64,000 nucleotides of DNA from Anaerolineae bacterium (GTDB lineage Bacteria; Chloroflexota; Anaerolineae; B4-G1; DUEL01): positions 5,504-69,503 of the forward strand of contig JBDOIF010000093.1 in assembly GCA_041082215.1 (NCBI GenBank), given 5' to 3'. A program made the position numbers and the translations under genes. Below the pieces are notes generated by a model, which did not search any database, was not told the origin of the DNA, and worked only from the letters and a program-made list of their open reading frames with translations. The first letter of the stretch is position 1; every line of letters starts with the position of its first letter. This document shows, piece by piece, positions 24,505 to 63,157 of this stretch.

Positions 24505-24700
24505 CGACAACTGAATACGGCCTCGACAGAGGTGCCCCAAAGCCCGGATGTGAGGGGCACAAAGGGGGAAGACCGGTTCAAGTCCGGCGCTGTCCCGCAA
24601 CTGTAGGGACACGATTTGTCCGTGTCCAAGCCAGGATACCCGCCTCTGTCGGCGCCCACGCAACCTTCGCGGAAAGGGGGTGGCGCATGAAGGGCAAACA
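24505..24700 (+). promoter_or_regulatory. cobalamin (B12) riboswitch aptamer
   Basis: GGTGCCCC...AAGGGGGAAGACCGGTTCAAGTCCGGCGCTGTCCCGCAACTGTAGGGAC matches the conserved B12-element core (AAGGGAA-GGTGnAAnTCC...GCTGcCCCCGCAACTGTAA). Confidence 0.85.
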
Positions 24701-50637: not shown

Positions 50638-51780
50638 ATGGACTACGACGCGATCATCGTTGGCGCGGGGCCGGCGGGCGCGTCGGCTGCTTACTGGCTG
50701 GGGGAAGCCGGGAGACGGGTGCTGGTCCTGGAGAAGGAGCGGCTCCCCCGCTACAAGCCATGCGGCGGCGGGGTCCCCCGGTCAGTGTTCGGCCAGTTCC
50801 CGTTCGACTTCTCCCCTGTCATCGAGCGGGAGATCGGACGGGTGCGCTTCCGTTTCCGCGACGGGCGGGAGGTCGCCGCCGATCTGCCGGACCGGCCGGT
50901 GGCGATGGTGATGCGGGATCGGTTCGATTACCACCTCCTGAAGCACGCCCGTGCGGAGGTGCGGGAAGGCACTCCGGTGGTGGCGCTGTGTCAGGACAGG
51001 GACGGAGTGGAGGTGGAGGCGGCCTCCGGGGAGAGCTTCCGTGGCCGTTACCTTATCGGCGCCGACGGGGCCAACTCCCGTGTGGCGCGGCTGGCGAGCC
51101 TGCGGCGGAGCAGGCGGATGGGAGCAGCACTGGAAGCAGAGGTCCCCGCCGACGACGCACTGCTGGAGGAATACCGGGATACGGCTCTTTTCCTTTTCGG
51201 TGTGCCGCCGATGGGATATATGTGGGTCTTCCCCAAAGCGGAGCACCTTTCGGTGGGCATCGGCGCCTTTCTGGGAACGGCCTCCCCGATGCGTTCCCTC
51301 CTGCAGCAGGAAATGGCCCGGCTTGGCATCCATGTGGGTGGGCAGGATGGGCAGGGCCATCCTCTGCCGATCTACCTGCGACACGAGCCGCTCCACAGGG
51401 GCCGGGTGCTCCTGGCGGGGGATGCCGCCAGGCTGATGGACCCGCTGCTGGGGGAGGGGGTCCGTCATGCCATCCGAAGCGGACGGCTGGCGGCGGAGGC
51501 GGTGCTGGCCGGGGATCTGGAAGGGTACACCCGACGGGCACAGCGGGAGATCGGAAGCAACTTTCTCTGGGGGTTGCGCTGGGCGTGCCTGTTTTACAGG
51601 TATCCCCGCATCTGCTTCGAATTGGGCGTGCGGAACCCCCTGTTTCTGACGGAGTTCCTGCGCCTGTTCGCCGAGAACACCACCTATCGCCGTATGGCGG
51701 CCCGTGCCCCTTTCGACCTGCTGCTGGGGCTGTGGCAGCGACGGCGGGCGACGAGTGCGCAAGCAACAAGTAACAAGTAA
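50638..51780 (+). CDS. geranylgeranyl reductase family FAD-dependent oxidoreductase
   Basis: DAIIVGAGPAGASAA...LEKERLPRYKPCGGGV dinucleotide-binding motif and GDAA motif. Confidence 0.85.
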   Translation: MDYDAIIVGAGPAGASAAYWLGEAGRRVLVLEKERLPRYKPCGGGVPRSVFGQFPFDFSPVIEREIGRVRFRFRDGREVAADLPDRPVAMVMRDRFDYHLLKHARAEVREGTPVVALCQDRDGVEVEAASGESFRGRYLIGADGANSRVARLASLRRSRRMGAALEAEVPADDALLEEYRDTALFLFGVPPMGYMWVFPKAEHLSVGIGAFLGTASPMRSLLQQEMARLGIHVGGQDGQGHPLPIYLRHEPLHRGRVLLAGDAARLMDPLLGEGVRHAIRSGRLAAEAVLAGDLEGYTRRAQREIGSNFLWGLRWACLFYRYPRICFELGVRNPLFLTEFLRLFAENTTYRRMAARAPFDLLLGLWQRRRATSAQATSNK

Positions 51781-51793
51781 ACAGGAGGTAGCA

Positions 51794-52129
51794 ATGATCG
51801 GTCGAGATTATCGGGCAGTGCCACGGGAACCGGTTGACGAGGACAAATCCATCCGCTGGGTCATCGGCAAACCGGAGGGGGCGCCCAACTTTGCCATGCG
51901 GGTGATCGAGTTCCAGCCAGGGGCGGTCTTCGCGACCCACCAGCACCCCTATGAGCACGAGATCTTCGTGCTGGAGGGGGAGGGGGTGGCGGAGGGGCCG
52001 GACGGGGAGGTGCAGATGCGGCCCGGCGTGGCCCTCTACATCCCTCCCGACGAACCCCACGGCTACCGGAACACCGGGGAGAGAGTGCTGCGGTTCATCT
52101 GCGTCATCCCGCACACGAAAGGCGGATGA
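51794..52129 (+). CDS. cupin domain protein
   Basis: HQHPYEHEIFVLEGEG...PHGYRN two-His cupin motifs. An AGGAGG RBS lies upstream. Confidence 0.8.
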   Translation: MIGRDYRAVPREPVDEDKSIRWVIGKPEGAPNFAMRVIEFQPGAVFATHQHPYEHEIFVLEGEGVAEGPDGEVQMRPGVALYIPPDEPHGYRNTGERVLRFICVIPHTKGG

Positions 52130-52218: not shown

Positions 52219-52644
52219 ATGGCATCTGAGGCAAAGGTAACCTGGGTCGGTCCGGGCCTCCGGCTGGTAGGTGAAGCGTCCAGCGGCCCGGCCATCGTTT
52301 TGGATCACGTTCTATCGGAGGGGGAGCGGGAGACCGGCCCCCGGCCGATGGAGCTGCTGCTTATCGGGCTGGCGGGCTGCACGGCGATGGACGTGGTCTC
52401 CATCCTGCAGAAGAAGCGGCAGCCGTTCACCGGCCTCGAGGTGCGGGTGACGGCGGAGCGGGCCGAGGAACACCCCCGCGTCTACACCCAGATCCACCTG
52501 GAGTATGTGGTGAGGGGAAAAGGGGTGGACCCGCAGGCGGTGGAGCGGTCCATCGAGCTTTCACAGACCAAGTATTGTTCCGCCTCGGCGATGCTGGCGA
52601 AGGCGGCACAGATTACGACGTCGTACCGGATCGTGGAGGAGTGA
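52219..52644 (+). CDS. OsmC/Ohr family peroxiredoxin-like protein
   Basis: ELLLIGLAGCTAMDV and the SQTKYCSAS two-Cys OsmC signature. Confidence 0.85.
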   Translation: MASEAKVTWVGPGLRLVGEASSGPAIVLDHVLSEGERETGPRPMELLLIGLAGCTAMDVVSILQKKRQPFTGLEVRVTAERAEEHPRVYTQIHLEYVVRGKGVDPQAVERSIELSQTKYCSASAMLAKAAQITTSYRIVEE

Positions 52645-52898: not shown

Positions 52899-53752
52899 TG
52901 CGGCTCGGCGCACACGAATCCATATCCGGCGGCCTGCATCTGGCCTTCGACCGGGCTCAGTCGGTGGGCTGCGAGGCGGTGCAGATCTTCGTCAAATCGA
53001 ACCGGTCATGGGCAGTAACCCCGCTGACCGAGGAGGACATCGCCCTCTTCCAGGCAAAGGGCAGGGAGACCGGCATCCAGCCCGTGGTAGGCCACACCTC
53101 CTATCTGCTCAACCTGGGCACGCCGGATGAGGAACTCTGGCAGAAATCGCTGGAAACACTCATCATCGAGCTGGAACGGTGTGAGGCGCTGGAGGTGCCC
53201 TACCTGGTGCTCCACCCCGGCTCCCACGTGGGGGCAGGGGAGGAGGCGGGGCTGGCCCGGGTAGCGGAGGCACTGGGAAGGGTCCACGCTGCCACACCGG
53301 GCTTCCGCACCCAGATCCTCCTGGAGACCACCGCCGGGCAGGGGAGCAACCTGGGATACTGCTTCGAGCACCTGGCCTGGCTCCTGGAAAACACCCCCGG
53401 GGGAGACCGGCTGGGGGTCTGCCTGGACACCTGCCACGTCTTCGTCGCCGGGTACGAGATCCGCACCCCCGAAGGGTACGAGGCCACGATGGAGGCGCTC
53501 GACCAAATCGTGGGCCTTGAGCGGCTCAAGGCAATCCATCTCAACGACAGCAAGGGGGACCTGGGCAGCCAGAAGGACCGGCACGAGCACATCGGCAAGG
53601 GGTACATCGGTCTGGAGGGATTCCGGCTTGTGCTGAACGACCCCCGTCTGTCCGGGCTGCCAGGGCTTCTGGAGACGCCCAAAAGCGACGACCTGCATGA
53701 GGATGTGGAGAACCTGGCAGTGCTGAAGTCGCTACGTCAAACGCCGAGATGA
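52895..53752 (+). CDS. nfo: endonuclease IV (deoxyribonuclease IV)
   Basis: TIM-barrel AP endonuclease 2 motifs (HxSYLxNLG, LVLHPGSH, CLDTCH, IHLNDSK). Confidence 0.9.
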   Translation: MMRLGAHESISGGLHLAFDRAQSVGCEAVQIFVKSNRSWAVTPLTEEDIALFQAKGRETGIQPVVGHTSYLLNLGTPDEELWQKSLETLIIELERCEALEVPYLVLHPGSHVGAGEEAGLARVAEALGRVHAATPGFRTQILLETTAGQGSNLGYCFEHLAWLLENTPGGDRLGVCLDTCHVFVAGYEIRTPEGYEATMEALDQIVGLERLKAIHLNDSKGDLGSQKDRHEHIGKGYIGLEGFRLVLNDPRLSGLPGLLETPKSDDLHEDVENLAVLKSLRQTPR

Positions 53753-54381
53753 GCGTCTTCGACGGGCTGGTGACAGGGTACGACCGGGGGATGTTGCCGC
53801 TGGAGTGGGCGGTGCTCAGGCAGTTGCGGCGCCGGGCCTTTCCCCTGGTGACCGGGCAGGTGCTGGAGGTGGGGGTTGGTACGGGGGTCAACCTCCCCCT
53901 CTACAGCTCCGAAGCCCAGGTGGTGGCGCTGGACGCCAGCGGGCCGATGGTCGCCCAGGCCGCCCGCCGCCCGACCCGCGCCCTGGTCCGGCCGGTCCAG
54001 GCAGACGTGGAGCACCTTCCCTTTGCCAGCGGCTCCTTCGACACCGTGACCGGCTCGCTCCTTTTCTGTTCCGTGCGGGACCCGGTGCGGGGACTGAAGG
54101 AGATACACCGGGTGCTCAGGCCGGGCGGGCGGCTGGTGCTGGTGGAGCACACCCGCGGGAAGGGGATAGGGGCCTGGCTGACCGATCTCCTCCATCCCAT
54201 CTGGTTCGCCCTGAACGGGACCTGTCACCTGAATCGGGAGACGGGCCGGATGGTGAGAGAAGCCGGGTTCCGACAGGTGCGGGAAGAGACAGGAGGGCTG
54301 GGGATTTTCCGGGTAATTGAAGGGCGGAAGCAGGAGACAGAACACAGGAGGCAGGATGCTGACGCAGTTTTTGCGGGATAA
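53749..54381 (+). CDS. class I SAM-dependent methyltransferase
   Basis: VLEVGVGTGVNL is motif I and a Methyltransf_11-like core is present. Confidence 0.8.
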   Translation: MSVFDGLVTGYDRGMLPLEWAVLRQLRRRAFPLVTGQVLEVGVGTGVNLPLYSSEAQVVALDASGPMVAQAARRPTRALVRPVQADVEHLPFASGSFDTVTGSLLFCSVRDPVRGLKEIHRVLRPGGRLVLVEHTRGKGIGAWLTDLLHPIWFALNGTCHLNRETGRMVREAGFRQVREETGGLGIFRVIEGRKQETEHRRQDADAVFAG

Positions 54382-54772
54382 CTGGTTGTTGCTGGTGTTT
54401 GTGGGCGGGCTGGCGGCACTCTGGTTGCTCCTGCACACGCCAGGCACGGAGCTTGCTTCAACGGCAGAGTTCGACCGGCGGGTCTCCGTCGGCCGGCCGG
54501 TGGTGGTCGAGTTCTACTCCAACACCTGAAGCGGATGCCTTCTGGCAAAGCCTGTCGTGGACAGGCTGGAAAGGGAGCTGGAGGGGCGTGCAGAGGTGGT
54601 GCGGGTGGATGCGATGACGCAGGTGGGAGCCGAGCTGGCCCGACGATACGGCGTGCGCGGCGTGCCCACCCTGCTGGTCTTCGACGGGGCTGGACAGGTG
54701 GTCTACAGCGGGGTCGGTCTGCCAGACAGGCAAGCGATTACGACAGCGGTGGATCGGGTTTCCGGGCAGTAA
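54356..54772 (+). CDS. membrane-anchored thioredoxin-fold protein with in-frame TGA at the CxxC position (candidate selenoprotein, UxxC = T-U-S-G-C)
   Basis: AGGAGG RBS. An N-terminal TM helix is followed by VVVEFYSNT-TGA-SGCLLAKPVVD...YGVRGVPTLLVFDGAGQVV. The TGA lies at 54527-54529, and the two ORF-track pieces (54317..54529 and 54557..54772) are in the same frame with no other stop between them. Confidence 0.55.
54549..54567 (+). promoter_or_regulatory. candidate bacterial SECIS hairpin AGCCTGTC-gtg-GACAGGCT, 22 nt downstream of the in-frame UGA
   Basis: Perfect 8-bp stem seen directly in the sequence; the apical region contains GU. Confidence 0.4.
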
Positions 54773-54776
54773 GATC

Positions 54777-54858
54777 GGGCGTCAGGCGTCAAACGTCAGG
54801 CGTCAAACGTCAGGCGTCAAACGTCAGGCGTCAAACGTCAGGCGTCAGGCGTCAGACG
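54777..54858. repeat. heptad tandem array (CGTCAGG/CGTCAAA alternating, about 11 copies)
   Basis: ggcgtcaggcgtcaaacgtcaggcgtcaaacgtcaggcgtcaaacgtcaggcgtcaaacgtcaggcgtcaggcgtcagacg. Confidence 0.85.
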
Positions 54859-54862
54859 TTGC

Positions 54863-55519
54863 CTACCAGGCCTGCCCCCGACCGGTCAGGACCCGCACCA
54901 GCAACCCCACCGCCAGTCCGCTGACAAACCCGCCGATGTGGGCAAACCAGGCCACTCCGCCCGTCGCCACGCTCATTGTGCCCAGACTGAGGAAGCCGTT
55001 GAAGAGCTGAAGGACGAACCAGAAGCCCAGGACGATGAGGGACGGCACACGGGCGATGCGCATCATAAAGTAGCCCGGCACCAGCACCCGCACCGGCGCG
55101 GCCGGGAAGAGGACCATATAGACGGCCAGGACCCCGGCGATGGCCCCGCTGGCACCGACACCCGGCACGGTGGAAGAAGGAGCGATGATCACCTGGGCCA
55201 CCCCTGCCGCGATCCCCGCTGCCAGGTAGAACAGCGTGTATCCCACCCGCCCCAGCGCATCCTCCACGTTGTCGCCGAAGATCCAGAGGTAGAGCATATT
55301 GCCAATCAGGTGAGCCCAACCCCCGTGGAGGAACATCGAGGTGAAAAGCGTGACCGCGGCCAGGGGATGGTCCATCGGGTCGGTGATATAGGCCGGGACC
55401 GCCCCCCAGCGCATAAAAAACCGGTCCACCCGCGAGCCCAGCATCAGCTCATACAGAAAGACCAGGACGTTGACCCCGATCAACCCCCAGGTGACCACCG
55501 GCACCCGACGACTGGGCAT
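54863..55519 (-). CDS. rhomboid family intramembrane serine protease
   Basis: GASGAIAGV catalytic Ser motif and a downstream His in TM6. The ATG at 55519 (MPSRRVPVVTW) is preferred over the GC-rich upstream extension. Confidence 0.85.
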   Translation of the reverse strand: MPSRRVPVVTWGLIGVNVLVFLYELMLGSRVDRFFMRWGAVPAYITDPMDHPLAAVTLFTSMFLHGGWAHLIGNMLYLWIFGDNVEDALGRVGYTLFYLAAGIAAGVAQVIIAPSSTVPGVGASGAIAGVLAVYMVLFPAAPVRVLVPGYFMMRIARVPSLIVLGFWFVLQLFNGFLSLGTMSVATGGVAWFAHIGGFVSGLAVGLLVRVLTGRGQAW

Positions 55520-55554
55520 CTCGTCGGAAATAGGAATCACACCCCTGCTCCTTT

Positions 55555-56076
55555 CTAACGCCGACGGTCCGGCCTCCAGTAGCCACCCTGCACCGTGCGA
55601 GCCTCCGAAACGGCGACGATGGCCCGATCGTCTGCCTCCTCCGCCAGCCGGATCACCGCCGACACGCTCTTGCGGGGCACGATGGCCTCCACGATACCCA
55701 CCGGGCTGGCCTGCCCCCGCCCGTAGAGCTCCGTCGCCCCGAACCCCGCCCTGCGCAGAGAGGCCGCCACAGCGTCCCCCCGCTGAGTGGAGATGATGCG
55801 CACCTCCGCGTACCCCAGCGCGATCCGCTGCTCCAGCACCATCCCCACCCACGTACCGGCGGCATACCCCAGGACGTAGGCGCTGAGGTTCCAGATGTTG
55901 CTCAGGTTCGTCACCACCTTGCCGATGGCCACAACGTAGACCAGGGCGCCCAATGTGCCAGCCAGAATGGCGGGCAGCTTGCGGCCCTGAACGGTGAGAA
56001 TGGTCCCCAGGGTGCTGACCGATATGCCGACCACCCGCAGGGCAAAGATAAGCAGAGCCTGAAGAAAAGTCTCCAT
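55555..56076 (-). CDS. UPF0316/DUF2179 family membrane protein
   Basis: Three N-terminal TM helices and a C-terminal soluble DUF2179-like domain. Confidence 0.6.
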   Translation of the reverse strand: METFLQALLIFALRVVGISVSTLGTILTVQGRKLPAILAGTLGALVYVVAIGKVVTNLSNIWNLSAYVLGYAAGTWVGMVLEQRIALGYAEVRIISTQRGDAVAASLRRAGFGATELYGRGQASPVGIVEAIVPRKSVSAVIRLAEEADDRAIVAVSEARTVQGGYWRPDRRR

Positions 56077-56196: not shown

Positions 56197-56559
56197 TCAG
56201 TCCTCCTTCACCAGCGCCGACAGGATGGTGGTGACGATGCTCACGATGAGAGCGCCCCAGAAAGCCGGCCAGAAACCTTCCACGTAGAAGCCGATGCCGA
56301 ACTGATTGGCAATCCAGGCCGAAAGCCACAGGACAAAGCCGTTGATCACCAGGACGAAAAGTCCCAGCGTGAGCAGGATGAGCGGGCAGGTGAGGAGCTT
56401 GAGCACCGGCCGGACCAGGGCGTTGACCAGCCCCAGGATGATCGCCATCACCGCATAGGCCACCCAGGCGGTCCCGGAGACCCGGATGCCCGGCACCACC
56501 CATGCGGCGACGAAGAGCGCCAGCGCGGAGATCACCCAACGGACCAGGATTTTGACCAT
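56197..56559 (-). CDS. phage-holin-superfamily-IV-like 4-TM membrane protein (DUF360/YvlD-like)
   Basis: 120 aa with four TM helices and a VNALVRPVLKLLT motif. Confidence 0.6.
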   Translation of the reverse strand: MVKILVRWVISALALFVAAWVVPGIRVSGTAWVAYAVMAIILGLVNALVRPVLKLLTCPLILLTLGLFVLVINGFVLWLSAWIANQFGIGFYVEGFWPAFWGALIVSIVTTILSALVKED

Positions 56560-60491: not shown

Positions 60492-61664
60492 TCACTCTCC
60501 CCGATCCAGCCCTTCCAGGAACCGGCTCAGCACCTCCACGGCCTCCTCCATCCTCCCCGGATCGAGACGATCGGGGCTGTCCATCGCCGAGTGGAGGCCC
60601 CGCCCGCCCAGCTCCAGATCGAAGCTCCCCAGTGTTGCAGCGGGGATGCCCTGGCGCAGGAAGGCAAACCCGTCGCTGTTGATGAGGGGGACGCGGAAGG
60701 GCCGCTCCCCCGTCACCGCCTCCACTGCCCGTTCCAGCGCTCCGTTCAGCGCCGGGTCGGCGGGCAGCCGGACCATCGCCGTGCCGTCCTGATCCCAGAG
60801 CAGGTAGCCCCCGTTCTGGCCCATCACCTCCAGATTGACCACACAGGCAGGCAGGGGCCATTCCTTCCGATCCCGCACGTAGGCCAGCGCCCCCTGCATC
60901 TGGGCCTCCTCTCCCACGGTGAAGAGGAGCGTGAGGTGGGTGTGTTCCAGCCGCAGTTCGCCCCGTGCGGAGCGACGGGCCAGCTCCAGCAGGACTGCCA
61001 CCGCCGCCCCGTCGTCCACCGCGCCAGTGCTGGGGTGGCGGCTGAACCGTCCGCCGACCAGATTGGCGGCCATCGCCAGCCCGTAGAGAGCTGTCGGCAG
61101 GGCTGCTGCGAAGGCCGCCCAGCGGAGAAGCTGAGCGGCAGGGGCCGGAACCAGGCTGGCGACAAAGGTAAGCCCGCCCGCCGTCAGCGCCAGCCCCATC
61201 GCCAGACGCCCCAGCCTCAACAGCCGCTCCCGCTGTACATGGTCCAGAAGCTCGGTCTTGGAATCCAGGTGGGCGCAGAGGATCGCCTCCCGCTTCGGGC
61301 GGGGAGCAGGAAAGGAAACGACCAGGTTCTCGGCGGGCCGGCGGATGAGGGCGGTAACCGTCGGGAAGAGGAAGCGGGTCTCCGCCAGGGGGACCCCCAG
61401 GGCCAGGAGCGCCACGATCAGCCCCCACCACCCCCACCGGCCCAGCGCGGCAGCGGGGAGCAGAAGGCCGGTGAAGGCCATCCAGACCCCCAACCATTCC
61501 ATAAAATAGGGGCGCAGGATGAACCGGTGGCCCTCAACCGGCGTCCCCTCCCTCTGGAGCCAGGCCCGCACCTCCCCGACCGTCTCCTCCAGCGCCCGGC
61601 TGCCATTGGGGCGGGGACGGGCGAGGGAAGGGAGGAAGGCAGGGAACGAGGACCGCTCGCCCAT
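60492..61664 (-). CDS. membrane-anchored M28 family zinc aminopeptidase
   Basis: A TM region is followed by CAHLDS, the GAVDDGAAVAVLLELAR and FTVGEE metal-site motifs. The ATG at 61664 is preferred. Confidence 0.75.
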   Translation of the reverse strand: MGERSSFPAFLPSLARPRPNGSRALEETVGEVRAWLQREGTPVEGHRFILRPYFMEWLGVWMAFTGLLLPAAALGRWGWWGLIVALLALGVPLAETRFLFPTVTALIRRPAENLVVSFPAPRPKREAILCAHLDSKTELLDHVQRERLLRLGRLAMGLALTAGGLTFVASLVPAPAAQLLRWAAFAAALPTALYGLAMAANLVGGRFSRHPSTGAVDDGAAVAVLLELARRSARGELRLEHTHLTLLFTVGEEAQMQGALAYVRDRKEWPLPACVVNLEVMGQNGGYLLWDQDGTAMVRLPADPALNGALERAVEAVTGERPFRVPLINSDGFAFLRQGIPAATLGSFDLELGGRGLHSAMDSPDRLDPGRMEEAVEVLSRFLEGLDRGE

Positions 61665-61672
61665 CGCCTCCC

Positions 61673-63157
61673 TCACAGCGCGCTGAAATCCTGCCGGGAT
61701 TCGTCCTCGTAGGCCAGGTAATCTTCGTAGCTGCGCTCCCGCGTCATCTGCAGGTAGGCCTCCAGCTCCCTCTCCACCGCCGGGTCCAGCTCCCGGGGCC
61801 GGTGGGCCGCCAGGATCTCCTCCATCCGCCCGCGGGCCCGGTCCAGCACCGTCTTCCGCCCCTCCTTCTCCCAGGTATCGTACCCTTCCCGGACCATCAG
61901 CCGGGGCACAAAGTGCTCCCGGCGGAAGTAACGGGCGGTGTGAGGCTGGTTGAGGTAGTGGCCGGAGAAGCCGACCTGGCGGATCACATCCAGGGCCAGG
62001 GTCTCCTCGCTGACCTCGATGCCGCGGGCCAGTCGCAGGGCCATGCCGCACAGTTCATCGTCGAGCACCAGGAGCAGGTGGCTTTCCAGCATCGTCGAAT
62101 CGAGCGTGCCGCCGCAGGTGATGAAATGGATGCCGGAAAGGACCGCCGGAAGGAGGGTGGCGGTCCGCTCCACGCCGGCCTGGAGGTCCTCCAGCTTCGA
62201 CTCGGTGGTTGCGCCGACGCCCCGGGAGGGGAGGCCGTAGTAGCGGGCCAGTTGGGCGGACGCGGCGGTGATCAGCCCGGTCTCCACTCCGCCCAGCGCC
62301 ACCGTCCCCAGCCGCATGTTGGTGATGGTGGAGACGGTGCCGTAGAGGACGGGCGTGCCAGGGCGGGCGATCTGGGCCAGGACAATGTGGGCCAGGATGT
62401 TGGCGTTCTGCTGGGCCAGGAGGCCCGCCAGCGTGGCCGGGGCAGTGCTGCCGGCAAGCGCTTCAGGGGACATCGCCAGGGGCTGGCCGTACTCGGCGCA
62501 GATCAGCAGCCCTTCCGCCTGCATCTGGATCATCTGGAGGGGGCTGGCGACGGAGCAGATGGCGAAGAAGCGGGGGCGGGCCCGCAGCTCCTCCTTACCG
62601 CCGACAGCGATGGCCATCATCCGCATCATATCCAGCGTGGGCAGGAAGCCGTAGCAGCCCATCCCGAAGGGCTTGCGGCTGAGCCGCGCCCAGGCCATGA
62701 TCGCCTCGGTGTGGATGGTGGTCATCGGGATGTCGGCGGGCCAGATGTCCATCTGACTGTTGTGGATGTGATCAAGGCCGTCAATGATCCGGAGATGGCG
62801 GTGGAGGTCGGCCAGCGTCACCTCCCGCCGCTGGCCCGTACAGGGGTCAAGGATGTGGGTGGGGGTGCCCAGAGCGGCAAAGACCGTGCCCTCCCCTCCG
62901 ATCTCCACCTGGAAGTTGGGGTCATTGCCGTAAAGGGAGAAGGTGGAGGGGGCCTGTTCGATGGCCCACCAGACCAGCCGTTCGGGGATACGGACCGCCT
63001 GGGTCTCTTCATCCACCTCCGCCCCGGCCTCCTGGAAAAGCCTCCGTGCCCGGCCGTGGTCCACCCTGATCCCGACCTCGGCCAGGACCTTCATTGAAGC
63101 TGCGTGGATGCGTTCGATCTCCTGCTGGCTGAGAACCTCGAACGATGCCTTTCCCAT
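61673..63157 (-). CDS. trimethylamine methyltransferase MttB superfamily protein, non-pyrrolysine member (quaternary-amine/glycine-betaine methyltransferase-like)
   Basis: Full-length MttB TIM-barrel homolog of about 495 aa with no internal amber codon. The start ATG is at about 63157 (MGKASFEVLSQQEIERI). Confidence 0.8.
   Translation of the reverse strand: MGKASFEVLSQQEIERIHAASMKVLAEVGIRVDHGRARRLFQEAGAEVDEETQAVRIPERLVWWAIEQAPSTFSLYGNDPNFQVEIGGEGTVFAALGTPTHILDPCTGQRREVTLADLHRHLRIIDGLDHIHNSQMDIWPADIPMTTIHTEAIMAWARLSRKPFGMGCYGFLPTLDMMRMMAIAVGGKEELRARPRFFAICSVASPLQMIQMQAEGLLICAEYGQPLAMSPEALAGSTAPATLAGLLAQQNANILAHIVLAQIARPGTPVLYGTVSTITNMRLGTVALGGVETGLITAASAQLARYYGLPSRGVGATTESKLEDLQAGVERTATLLPAVLSGIHFITCGGTLDSTMLESHLLLVLDDELCGMALRLARGIEVSEETLALDVIRQVGFSGHYLNQPHTARYFRREHFVPRLMVREGYDTWEKEGRKTVLDRARGRMEEILAAHRPRELDPAVERELEAYLQMTRERSYEDYLAYEDESRQDFSAL

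What the first reader, a model, noticed from the sequence alone, without database searches (positions are those of the whole stretch)
54356..54772. Thioredoxin-fold membrane protein with TGA exactly at the first CxxC cysteine: candidate UxxC selenoprotein with SECIS-like hairpin
The ORF track splits this into two pieces, but they are in the same frame and separated only by one TGA (54527-54529). Translated through, it reads ...RPVVVEFYSNT-U-SGC-LLAKPVVDRLERELEG...YGVRGVPTLLVFDGAGQVV. That is a canonical thioredoxin fold in which the TGA occupies the N-terminal redox Cys position (U-S-G-C), the classic signature of thioredoxin-like selenoproteins. A perfect 8-bp hairpin (AGCCTGTC-gtg-GACAGGCT) starts 22 nt downstream of the UGA, the usual position of a bacterial SECIS. 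An N-terminal TM helix suggests a TlpA/ResA-like extracytoplasmic reductase.
Basis: partly seen in the sequence, partly recalled or inferred. Interest (0 to 1): 0.75.

Follow-up and report, generated by a model that had tools for sequence, protein, structure and literature searches.

The report
Membrane-anchored selenocysteine thioredoxin gene, misannotated
This is very probably a real gene for a small membrane-anchored thioredoxin whose first active-site cysteine is replaced by selenocysteine (encoded by UGA plus a downstream RNA hairpin); the same arrangement is conserved in about fifty Anaerolineae genomes, where gene callers cut the gene in two, but it is a further example of a well-known kind of protein.

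Summary
One ORF runs from 54356 to 54772 (+), with a Shine-Dalgarno site upstream. It is interrupted only by TGA 54527-54529, which sits at the first Cys of the thioredoxin CxxC motif (U-S-G-C). An 8-bp hairpin follows at 54549-54567.

Comparative evidence makes the selenoprotein reading strong:
- Of 71 orthologous loci (window included), almost all from Anaerolineae/Chloroflexota MAGs, 50 have TGA in this column and 21 have TGC/TGT.
- The coding sequence is conserved on both sides of the TGA, in one frame.
- Every TGA form carries the hairpin RCCUGUC-GUN-GACAGGYU. It fits the published bacterial SECIS geometry: 27 nt from the UGA to the loop, loop GUG, -11.7 kcal/mol.
- The hairpin codons are frozen at synonymous sites (CCT/GTC/GAC/AGG in 48-50 of 50), and there are a few compensatory changes.
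- Most Cys forms have free synonymous sites and no hairpin.
- TGA is the commonest ordinary stop codon in the window, so the code is not reassigned.

The fold is a classical thioredoxin behind one N-terminal membrane helix, probably facing outward. It is not TlpA/ResA-type.

Two things remain untested: Sec machinery in the same genome, which is documented only for the order in the literature, and the protein's function.

Verdict: a real, unannotated selenoprotein gene and a new member of a known kind, of moderate interest.

The parts
54345..54350 (+). Shine-Dalgarno-like AGGAGG, 5 nt upstream of the ATG
   Evidence: Read directly from the sequence. No such site precedes the GTG at 54557 that begins the second ORF piece.
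54356..54772 (+). Complete gene: 138-codon membrane-anchored thioredoxin with Sec at codon 58 (stop TAA 54770-54772)
   Evidence: Translation. Pfam PF00085 at 51.4 bits. 71 orthologous loci are conserved in one frame across the TGA.
54383..54433 (+). N-terminal transmembrane helix (residues 10-26, WLLLVFVGGLAALWLLL)
   Evidence: Mean Kyte-Doolittle hydropathy is 2.5. The N flank is more positive than the C flank in 59 of 70 family members. The orthologue model shows a helix at residues 2-29.
54527..54529 (+). In-frame UGA, proposed selenocysteine codon (residue 58)
   Evidence: TGA in 50 of 71 orthologues and TGC/TGT in 21. It aligns with the first Cys of WCGPC in solved thioredoxins. TGA is otherwise the commonest stop in the window, at 27 of 44 long ORFs.
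54527..54538 (+). Redox motif U-S-G-C (residues 58-61)
   Evidence: The second Cys is invariant in 71 of 71 loci. The motif lies at the start of helix alpha2 in the orthologue model.
54549..54567 (+). Bacterial SECIS-type hairpin: stem 54549-54556 / 54560-54567, loop GUG 54557-54559
   Evidence: -11.7 kcal/mol. RNAalifold finds it as the only consensus structure. 98.5% of cells are paired in 50 TGA forms, against 45.8% in Cys forms. There are G-C to A-U (9 times) and U-A to G-C compensatory changes. Synonymous sites are frozen. It fits the bSECIS criteria quoted from PMC13188914.
54659..54670 (+). G-V-P-T loop (residues 102-105) with the thioredoxin cis-proline
   Evidence: P104 and T105 are invariant in alignment A1. 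The loop aligns with IPT of thioredoxins.
53749..54381 (+). Upstream SAM-dependent methyltransferase whose end overlaps the thioredoxin gene start by 26 nt (context, probably co-transcribed)
   Evidence: NCBIfam gives only sub-threshold methyltransferase hits. A homologue lies within 2.3 kb of 24 of 50 Sec-form loci and of none of 21 Cys-form loci. In L001 it overlaps the thioredoxin gene by 4 nt.

Best explanation
The segment 54356-54772 is one gene for a 138-residue selenoprotein.

Proposed decoding: when the ribosome reaches UGA 54527-54529, the hairpin 54549-54567 (8 bp, loop GUG, 27 nt after the UGA) recruits SelB-GTP-Sec-tRNASec. Selenocysteine is then inserted at residue 58 instead of terminating translation.

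Proposed product: one N-terminal membrane helix followed by a classical thioredoxin domain with the active site U58-S-G-C61. By the positive-inside rule the domain most likely faces the outside of the cytoplasmic membrane.

Proposed chemistry: it would act as a selenol/thiol-disulfide oxidoreductase. Sec58 attacks a substrate disulfide or sulfenate, Cys61 resolves the selenenylsulfide, and the protein is re-reduced by a partner that was not identified.

Shown here:
- the in-frame TGA at the catalytic Cys column, with Sec/Cys alternation among orthologues;
- coding constraint on both sides of the TGA;
- an RNA-level constraint on the hairpin that is present only in TGA forms;
- the thioredoxin fold.

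Inferred, not shown:
- that the inserted residue is Sec;
- SelB binding to the hairpin;
- the topology;
- the substrate.
For: 1. Sec/Cys pairs. Fifty of 71 orthologous loci have TGA and 21 have TGC/TGT in the same column. The JGI proteins with 'W' at this position are TGA codons read under code 4.

2. Coding constraint across the TGA. Residues just upstream are invariant while their third codon positions vary. At codon -12, Gly is 50/50 with a third-position entropy of 1.77 bits. At codon -6, Glu is 50/50 with both GAG and GAA used. Public gene calls nevertheless begin just after the CxxC, giving about 50 truncated 75-78-aa proteins.

3. Hairpin. It is present in all 50 TGA forms, with 98.5% of cells paired against 18-40% in the slid controls. 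RNAalifold recovers it independently. The third-position entropy of the hairpin codons is 0-0.28 bits in Sec forms, against 1.0-1.9 bits in Cys forms. The frozen codons are otherwise rare ones (CCT, AGG). Most Cys forms read KPKVD[QR]LE and pair only 45.8% of the same cells.

4. Geometry. The hairpin fits the published bSECIS model: loop of 3-9 nt, stem of 4-16 bp, G in the first two loop positions, 16-37 nt spacing from the UGA, and MFE of -7.5 kcal/mol or lower (PMC13188914).

5. The code is not reassigned. TGA ends 27 of 44 long ORFs in the window.

6. Orthology. The synteny cupin-OsmC-EndoIV-(methyltransferase)-thioredoxin is shared by Sec and Cys forms.

7. Fold. PF00085 is matched. The AlphaFold model of the Cys orthologue P0004 has pLDDT 89.6, and its top PDB matches are TrxA-type thioredoxins.

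8. Sec decoding in the order. SelB genes and Sec-containing formate dehydrogenases are reported in Anaerolineales single-cell genomes, and a SelB gene in A. thermophila (PMC4959059).
Against: - No selA, selB, selD or tRNA-Sec was seen in the window or in about 0.94 Mb of fetched flanks. These genes are not expected next to selenoprotein genes, so this is uninformative rather than negative.
- Covariation in the hairpin is modest: 2 of 8 pairs show double changes. The stem is almost invariant and overlaps the conserved peptide KPVVDRL.
- The genome scan used the peptide pattern P[VK]VD[RQ]LEx[ED]L. Members without this motif were not sampled, so the 50:21 ratio is biased.
- The structure model is of a Cys orthologue, not of the window protein.
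- The topology rests only on charge bias.
- No CcdA/DsbD-type electron donor was seen nearby.
Confidence: 0.88

Rival explanations
1. The gene is a pseudogene, or the TGA is a sequencing error for TGC/TGT, and the hairpin is a coincidence.
For: A single window on its own cannot exclude an error. TGA differs from TGC/TGT by one base, and 21 orthologues do carry TGC/TGT.
Against: Fifty independent assemblies from different studies have TGA at exactly this codon and no other disruption. Both halves are under purifying selection in one frame. The hairpin co-occurs with TGA and is lost in most Cys forms.
Confidence: 0.01
2. The UGA is read through without selenium. The hairpin would stimulate near-cognate decoding (Trp or Cys), or a SelB-like factor would deliver another amino acid, so the product is a full-length thioredoxin that is not a selenoprotein.
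For: Sequence analysis cannot identify the inserted residue. The Sec machinery of this genome was not seen. Downstream structures can stimulate read-through in other systems (general knowledge).
Against: The recoded position is the nucleophilic Cys of the CxxC motif and alternates only with Cys. Trp there would inactivate the enzyme. The hairpin matches the SelB-type bSECIS geometry and its G-U loop start. SelB is documented in Anaerolineales.
Confidence: 0.06
3. Two separate small proteins are made: a 57-residue membrane peptide, and a 71-76-residue C-terminal fragment as annotated in the databases. The conserved hairpin would then act as a regulatory or translational-coupling element.
For: Public annotations call the C-terminal piece as its own gene in about 50 clusters.
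Against: The called starts differ among orthologues (M, V or L at different codons), and none has a Shine-Dalgarno site in the window. The fragment would lack the CxxC motif and half of the thioredoxin fold. The Cys orthologues are single 139-144-aa proteins.
Confidence: 0.03

Closest known systems
Sec-containing thioredoxin (Trx, PF00085, UxxC), e.g. Treponema denticola Trx, listed as experimentally verified in PMC13188914 Table 1
   Same: It has the same Pfam family and the same UxxC motif, with Sec at the N-terminal nucleophilic position. It has the same type of in-ORF bacterial SECIS, and Cys-containing homologues exist.
   Different: The window protein has an N-terminal membrane anchor and a probably extracytoplasmic orientation. 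Its motif is T-U-S-G-C rather than W-U-G-P-C. It scores below the TIGR01068 thioredoxin equivalog cut-off (56 bits against 96.8). It occurs in Anaerolineae MAGs.
[quoted passage not shown]
   Same: These are exported or membrane-associated thioredoxin-fold oxidoreductases with Sec at the first redox position. The window protein also hits PF13098 (35.3 bits against a cut-off of 27).
   Different: No direct comparison with the representatives of these families was possible here. The window protein's best match and its predicted fold are the classical thioredoxin. It has no Redoxin/AhpC-TSA signal, and the top structural matches are TrxA-type.
ResA / CcmG (DsbE) / TlpA membrane-anchored extracytoplasmic thiol-disulfide reductases
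   Same: They share the architecture of one N-terminal membrane helix plus a thioredoxin-fold domain with a CxxC motif. They probably share the outside orientation and a reducing role.
   Different: They belong to a different subfamily. DsbE TIGR00385 scores only 15.6 bits against a cut-off of 123. The roughly 105-residue domain has no TlpA-type insertions. No cytochrome c maturation genes or CcdA were noted in the neighbourhoods inspected, though these were not searched for specifically.
E. coli fdhF-type bacterial SECIS / consensus bSECIS model (Zhang and Gladyshev model, as summarised in PMC13188914)
   Same: It is a stem-loop inside the ORF directly after the UGA, with a small apical loop starting G-U and the loop 27 nt from the UGA, within the 16-37 nt range.
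   Different: This is a short, perfect 8-bp stem with a 3-nt loop and no bulged U. It is almost invariant in sequence across the family. SelB binding was not tested.

Membership tests
Bacterial selenoprotein gene (UGA recoded through an in-ORF SECIS) | An in-frame UGA at a position where homologues carry Cys | tested here: met
   50 TGA against 21 TGC/TGT in the same column of 71 orthologous loci.
Bacterial selenoprotein gene (UGA recoded through an in-ORF SECIS) | Protein-level conservation on both sides of the UGA in the same frame | tested here: met
   Invariant residues with variable third codon positions occur upstream (G, P, E, F, S, N) and downstream (C, K, P, D, L, E, P, T) of the UGA.
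Bacterial selenoprotein gene (UGA recoded through an in-ORF SECIS) | A hairpin that satisfies the bSECIS model: 3-9 nt loop, 4-16 bp stem, G in the first two loop positions, 16-37 nt from UGA to loop, MFE of -7.5 kcal/mol or lower | tested here: met
   The loop is GUG (3 nt), the stem is 8 bp, the spacing is 27 nt and the energy is -11.7 kcal/mol. The criteria are from PMC13188914. The hairpin is conserved in 50 of 50 TGA forms.
Bacterial selenoprotein gene (UGA recoded through an in-ORF SECIS) | selA, selB, selC (tRNA-Sec) and selD in the same genome | not testable with these tools
The literature reports SelB in Anaerolineales SAGs and in A. thermophila (PMC4959059).
Bacterial selenoprotein gene (UGA recoded through an in-ORF SECIS) | Selenium demonstrably incorporated at the UGA position | not testable with these tools
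   This needs 75Se labelling or mass spectrometry.
Thioredoxin family (Pfam PF00085) | Score above the Pfam gathering threshold over most of the model | tested here: met
   51.4 bits against 23.5, model positions 5-101 of 103 (with U replaced by C).
Thioredoxin family (Pfam PF00085) | Thioredoxin fold with CxxC at the N-terminus of helix alpha2 and a cis-Pro loop | tested here: met
   U58xxC61 aligns with CGPC and VPT aligns with IPT of solved thioredoxins. The model of Cys orthologue P0004 has pLDDT 89.6 with alpha-beta-alpha-beta-alpha-beta-beta-alpha order. Its top Foldseek hits are TrxA-type, with target-normalised TM-scores of 0.77-0.85.
Canonical thioredoxin TrxA (NCBIfam TIGR01068 equivalog) | Score at or above the curated cut-off | tested here: not met
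   56 bits against a cut-off of 96.8. The protein also carries a membrane anchor that TrxA lacks.
TlpA / ResA / DsbE (CcmG) subfamily | Redoxin/AhpC-TSA-type domain signature and DsbE-family score | tested here: not met
   No PF08534 or PF00578 hit. TIGR00385 scores 15.6 bits against 123.15. The structural neighbours are classical thioredoxins.
TlpA / ResA / DsbE (CcmG) subfamily | N-terminal membrane anchor with the redox domain outside the cytoplasm | tested here: inconclusive
   A hydrophobic helix is present. The N flank has a net charge of +1.2 against -1.5 for the C flank, and the N flank is more positive in 59 of 70 members. This uses the positive-inside rule only, with no experimental topology.
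Curated NCBIfam thioredoxin-like selenoprotein families (e.g. SaoT NF040730, HUIPC-motif NF047660, VPGUxxT NF041383, TsoB NF045694) | Score at or above the family's curated cut-off | tested here: not met
   Only TsoB appears, at 22.8 bits against a cut-off of 805 and as a domain-level resemblance. None of the others is listed at E <= 0.01.

The most novel reading that the evidence does not exclude
These genes could form a distinct, so far uncatalogued selenoprotein subfamily: a membrane-anchored, outward-facing thioredoxin in which Sec, not Cys, is the predominant and possibly ancestral state across Anaerolineae.

Its SECIS is almost sequence-invariant. In the Sec-form lineages only, it is genomically coupled to a SAM-dependent methyltransferase (24 of 50 Sec loci against 0 of 21 Cys loci), and in one clade also to a canonical TrxA, a CsoR-like repressor and a MerR regulator. 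This hints at a dedicated envelope redox or chalcogen/metal-stress pathway, rather than a generic thioredoxin.
Probability: 0.2. Interest if true: 0.55.

Novelty: new member of a known kind. Interest (0 to 1): 0.35.

Why it matters
Thioredoxin-fold UxxC selenoproteins are a long-established class, so nothing conceptually new follows from this finding. It has three practical values.

First, it corrects an annotation. About fifty species-level Anaerolineae/Chloroflexota genomes, and dozens of metagenomic protein clusters, carry this gene split into a 57-62-aa 'hypothetical' piece and a 75-78-aa 'thioredoxin family protein' piece. Some are instead read with Trp under the wrong genetic code.

Second, it implies active Sec decoding across many uncultured Anaerolineae lineages.

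Third, the family is a clean natural series for study. It contains Sec forms, one large Cys clade that has lost the hairpin, and isolated Cys forms that still carry a relic hairpin. This makes it suitable for studying Sec-to-Cys replacement and how a SECIS constrains the peptide it encodes (KPVVDRL).

Tried and rejected
1. Sec machinery. ARAGORN on the window and on 60 loci, Rfam on the window and phmmer against all ORFs of about 0.94 Mb of held DNA found nothing.

2. Source contig. Exact look-ups of two window ORFs failed. A third (DUF2179) found only 10-kb Logan contigs from runs SRR27730043 and SRR28530377, with no taxonomy. The closest named relative is Anaerolineales bacterium SZUA-1492 (L002, 75% identity).

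3. Structure of the window protein. The Cys orthologue P0004 was modelled instead.

4. Other selenoprotein genes in the window. A screen for in-frame TGA with high GC3 on both sides gave 28 sites. Only this one has a redox motif. The rest look like off-frame or adjacent-gene artefacts and were not checked by homology.

5. Extended lower stem. The window's MFE fold suggests one, but it is not conserved. RNAalifold keeps only the 8-bp hairpin.

6. Genetic-code reassignment (code 4 or 25). Rejected, because TGA terminates most long ORFs in the window.

Full report
**Observation**

- One frame runs from ATG 54356 to TAA 54770-54772.
- It holds a single internal stop, TGA 54527-54529, at codon 58, and reads ...GRPVVVEFYSNT-*-SGC-LLAKPVVDRLE...RYGVRGVPTLLVFDG....
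- AGGAGG lies 5 nt before the ATG. Nothing comparable precedes the GTG at 54557 that starts the second mechanical ORF.
- With the stop replaced by Cys, the protein matches Pfam Thioredoxin PF00085 over 97 of 103 positions (51.4 bits, cut-off 23.5).
- In phmmer alignments to solved thioredoxins, the TGA codon falls on the first Cys of WCGPC, and VPT falls on the cis-proline loop.
- The hairpin AGCCUGUC-GUG-GACAGGCU occupies 54549-54567 and folds at -11.7 kcal/mol on its own.
- Only 3 of 1424 TGA trinucleotides in the window (0.2%) have an 8-bp perfect hairpin in the same position range.

**Homologues in protein databases**

A search of 5.8 billion protein clusters returned 56 hits.
- Two full-length proteins carry Cys at the position (NTCSTC, NSCSIC).
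- Three full-length JGI proteins carry 'W' there.
- About fifty are 75-78-residue fragments, all beginning at (M/V/L)AKPVVDRLE, immediately after the CxxC.
- The DNA of one 'W' protein shows that the W is TGA, read under genetic code 4 on a short contig.
- In a 432-kb NCBI contig (L001), the gene is split exactly as in the window, with TGA in frame: EFFSNT*SACLMAKPVVDRLE.

**Orthologues in genomes**

One scan of species-representative genomes gave 69 further loci. Almost all are Anaerolineae/Chloroflexota MAGs. A few are Dehalococcoidia and one is labelled Verrucomicrobiia.

With L001 and the window this makes 71 loci. In the catalytic column, 50 have TGA and 21 have TGC or TGT.

Residues around the site are conserved on both sides, while their third codon positions vary freely. 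Two examples are Gly at -12 (50/50, four codons in use) and Glu at -6 (50/50, GAG and GAA both used). This shows purifying selection on one continuous reading frame across the TGA.

Sec and Cys forms share the synteny cupin-OsmC-endonuclease IV-thioredoxin, so they are orthologues.

TGA is the commonest ordinary stop in the window, ending 27 of 44 long ORFs (GC 65.5%). The genetic code is therefore not reassigned.

**The RNA element**

- All 50 TGA forms carry R-CCUGUC-GUN-GACAGG-Y at the same distance from the UGA.
- On the gap-free alignment A2, 98.5% of cells form standard pairs, against 18-40% when the partner column is slid.
- RNAalifold independently predicts this 8-bp helix as the only consensus structure.
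- Covariation is limited because the stem is nearly invariant. Pair 2 alternates G-C (33), A-U (9) and G-U (4-5). One genome has U-A changed to G-C in the middle of the stem.
- The stronger evidence comes from synonymous sites:

| Codons compared | Third-position entropy or usage |
|---|---|
| Hairpin codons, Sec forms (Pro-Val-(Val)-Asp-Arg = CCT 48/50, GTC 49/50, GAC 50/50, AGG 48/50) | 0-0.28 bits |
| Neighbouring codons, Sec forms | roughly 0.8-1.9 bits |
| The same hairpin codons, Cys forms | 1.0-1.9 bits |

- CCT and AGG are otherwise the rarest choices in these genes. At the conserved Pro at -10, only 2 of 49 Pro codons are CCT.
- Eighteen Cys forms read KPKVD[QR]LE instead. Taken together, the 21 Cys forms pair only 45.8% of the same cells.
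- The element fits the published bacterial SECIS model. That model requires a 3-9 nt loop, a 4-16 bp stem, G in the first two loop positions (usually G followed by G or U), 16-37 nt between UGA and loop, and an MFE of -7.5 kcal/mol or lower (PMC13188914). Here the loop is GUG, the stem is 8 bp and the spacing is 27 nt.
- The first two loop bases are invariant and the third is free (G 41, C 4, T 3, A 2).

**Evolution**

In a rough neighbour-joining tree, the 18 KPKVD Cys forms make one clade nested among Sec forms. Three more Cys forms (L061, L063, L068) sit individually inside a deep, mostly-Sec clade. L061 keeps 7 of 8 hairpin pairs and L068 keeps 8 of 8, which looks like recent Sec-to-Cys replacement with a relic hairpin. 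This matches the dynamic Sec/Cys exchange described for bacterial selenoproteins (PMC1794560). The rooting, and therefore the direction of change, is not secure.

**Protein**

- The AlphaFold model of the Cys orthologue P0004 (52% identical to the window protein) has mean pLDDT 89.6. It shows a long N-terminal helix followed by alpha-beta-alpha-beta-alpha-beta-beta-alpha.
- Its best PDB matches are TrxA-type thioredoxins, with target-normalised TM-scores of 0.77-0.85. They are not TlpA, ResA or DsbE.
- No NCBIfam model reaches its cut-off. TIGR01068 thioredoxin scores 56 bits against 96.8, DsbE scores 15.6 against 123, and the selenoprotein TsoB scores 22.8 against 805. The protein is therefore a thioredoxin-family member outside the curated equivalogs and outside the curated thioredoxin-like selenoprotein families.
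- Across the family, the 15 residues before the hydrophobic segment have a mean net charge of +1.2 and the 15 after it -1.5. The N flank is the more positive in 59 of 70 members. By the positive-inside rule, the thioredoxin domain faces outward. This is an inference only.

**Context**

In the window, a SAM-dependent methyltransferase (53749-54381) overlaps the gene start by 26 nt. A homologue lies within 2.3 kb of 24 of 50 Sec-form loci, on the same strand and adjacent in one clade and divergent in another. It lies near none of the 21 Cys-form loci.

In the second clade (L018), a canonical TrxA gene lies immediately upstream, and a CsoR-like repressor and a MerR regulator lie downstream. OsmC lies upstream of 16 of 21 Cys forms. 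These neighbours point loosely to thiol, oxidative or metal stress, but they identify no substrate.

**Sec machinery**

Neither the window nor the fetched flanks contain tRNA-Sec, selA, selB or selD. The rest of the genome could not be reached. The literature reports Sec-specific elongation factors and Sec-type formate dehydrogenases in Anaerolineales single-cell genomes, and a SelB gene in Anaerolinea thermophila (PMC4959059). Chloroflexi already had three selenoprotein families in the 2006 survey (PMC1794560). This is the main untested link in the argument.

**Comparison with what is known, and verdict**

UxxC thioredoxins (PF00085), thiol:disulfide interchange proteins (PF13098) and TlpA-family UGC proteins are all listed among the 119 known or predicted prokaryotic selenoprotein families (PMC13188914, Table 1). 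The window gene works like these and belongs to the thioredoxin family.

It differs in three ways: its membrane anchor, its T-U-x-x-C context, and its taxonomic home. No database entry retrieved here annotates it as a selenoprotein.

I rate it a real feature and a new member of a known kind. My confidence that it encodes a Sec-containing protein is about 0.88. My confidence in the outward-facing reductase role is roughly 0.5.

Noticed in passing
window 54778-54859: A tandem repeat of a 14-nt unit CGTCAGGCGTCAAA, 5.7 copies and 95% matches. It fills the gap between the convergent thioredoxin gene and the rhomboid gene. Logan contigs from the same organism (L072, L073) end inside or next to it, so short-read assemblies seem to break here.
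   Followed up: partly
window 53749-54381 (+); L001 9225-9803; L018 8489-9124 (-): A class I SAM methyltransferase (Methyltransf_11/25) that is below every NCBIfam cut-off. It lies near 24 of 50 Sec-form loci but near none of the 21 Cys-form loci. It is translationally overlapping in the window (26 nt) and in L001 (4 nt). Whether the link is functional or merely reflects lineage is unknown.
   Followed up: partly
L018 9467-9964 (+), 10640-11002 (+), 11324-11812 (+): In a second Sec-form clade, a canonical TrxA (PF00085, 108.6 bits) directly precedes the gene. A CsoR-type metal-sensitive repressor and a MerR regulator follow it.
   Followed up: partly
window 52219-52644 (+) and 51704-52129 (+): An OsmC-like protein and a cupin lie upstream. 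OsmC is next to the thioredoxin gene in 16 of 21 Cys-form loci and in 6 of 50 Sec-form loci.
   Followed up: partly
L071 105-539 (JGI 3300057034 contig Ga0568873_0367512): JGI gene calls P0001-P0003 show Trp at the Sec position. On L071, the only one checked at DNA level, the call also runs past the true TGA stop. The short contig was evidently translated with genetic code 4.
   Followed up: yes
L061 2204-2263; L068 10082-10141: Two Cys-form orthologues (TGC, TGT) still carry a 7/8- or 8/8-paired hairpin at the SECIS position. L068 comes from a contig labelled Verrucomicrobiia. These may be recent Sec-to-Cys conversions, or a transfer or binning artefact.
   Followed up: no
window 24513-24661 (+): A cobalamin riboswitch (RF00174, 75.8 bits).
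   Followed up: no
window about 60492-62051 (-); L072 2135-3619: An MttB-family (PF06253) methyltransferase homologue of about 494 aa, apparently without an internal stop. It was not checked for pyrrolysine-type features.
   Followed up: no
window 54863-55852 (-), 55555-56076 (-), 56197-56559 (-): On the opposite strand, downstream of the thioredoxin gene, lie a rhomboid-family protease, a DUF5698/DUF2179 protein and a Phage_holin_4_2-family membrane protein. The first two are also next to L002, the closest relative.
   Followed up: no
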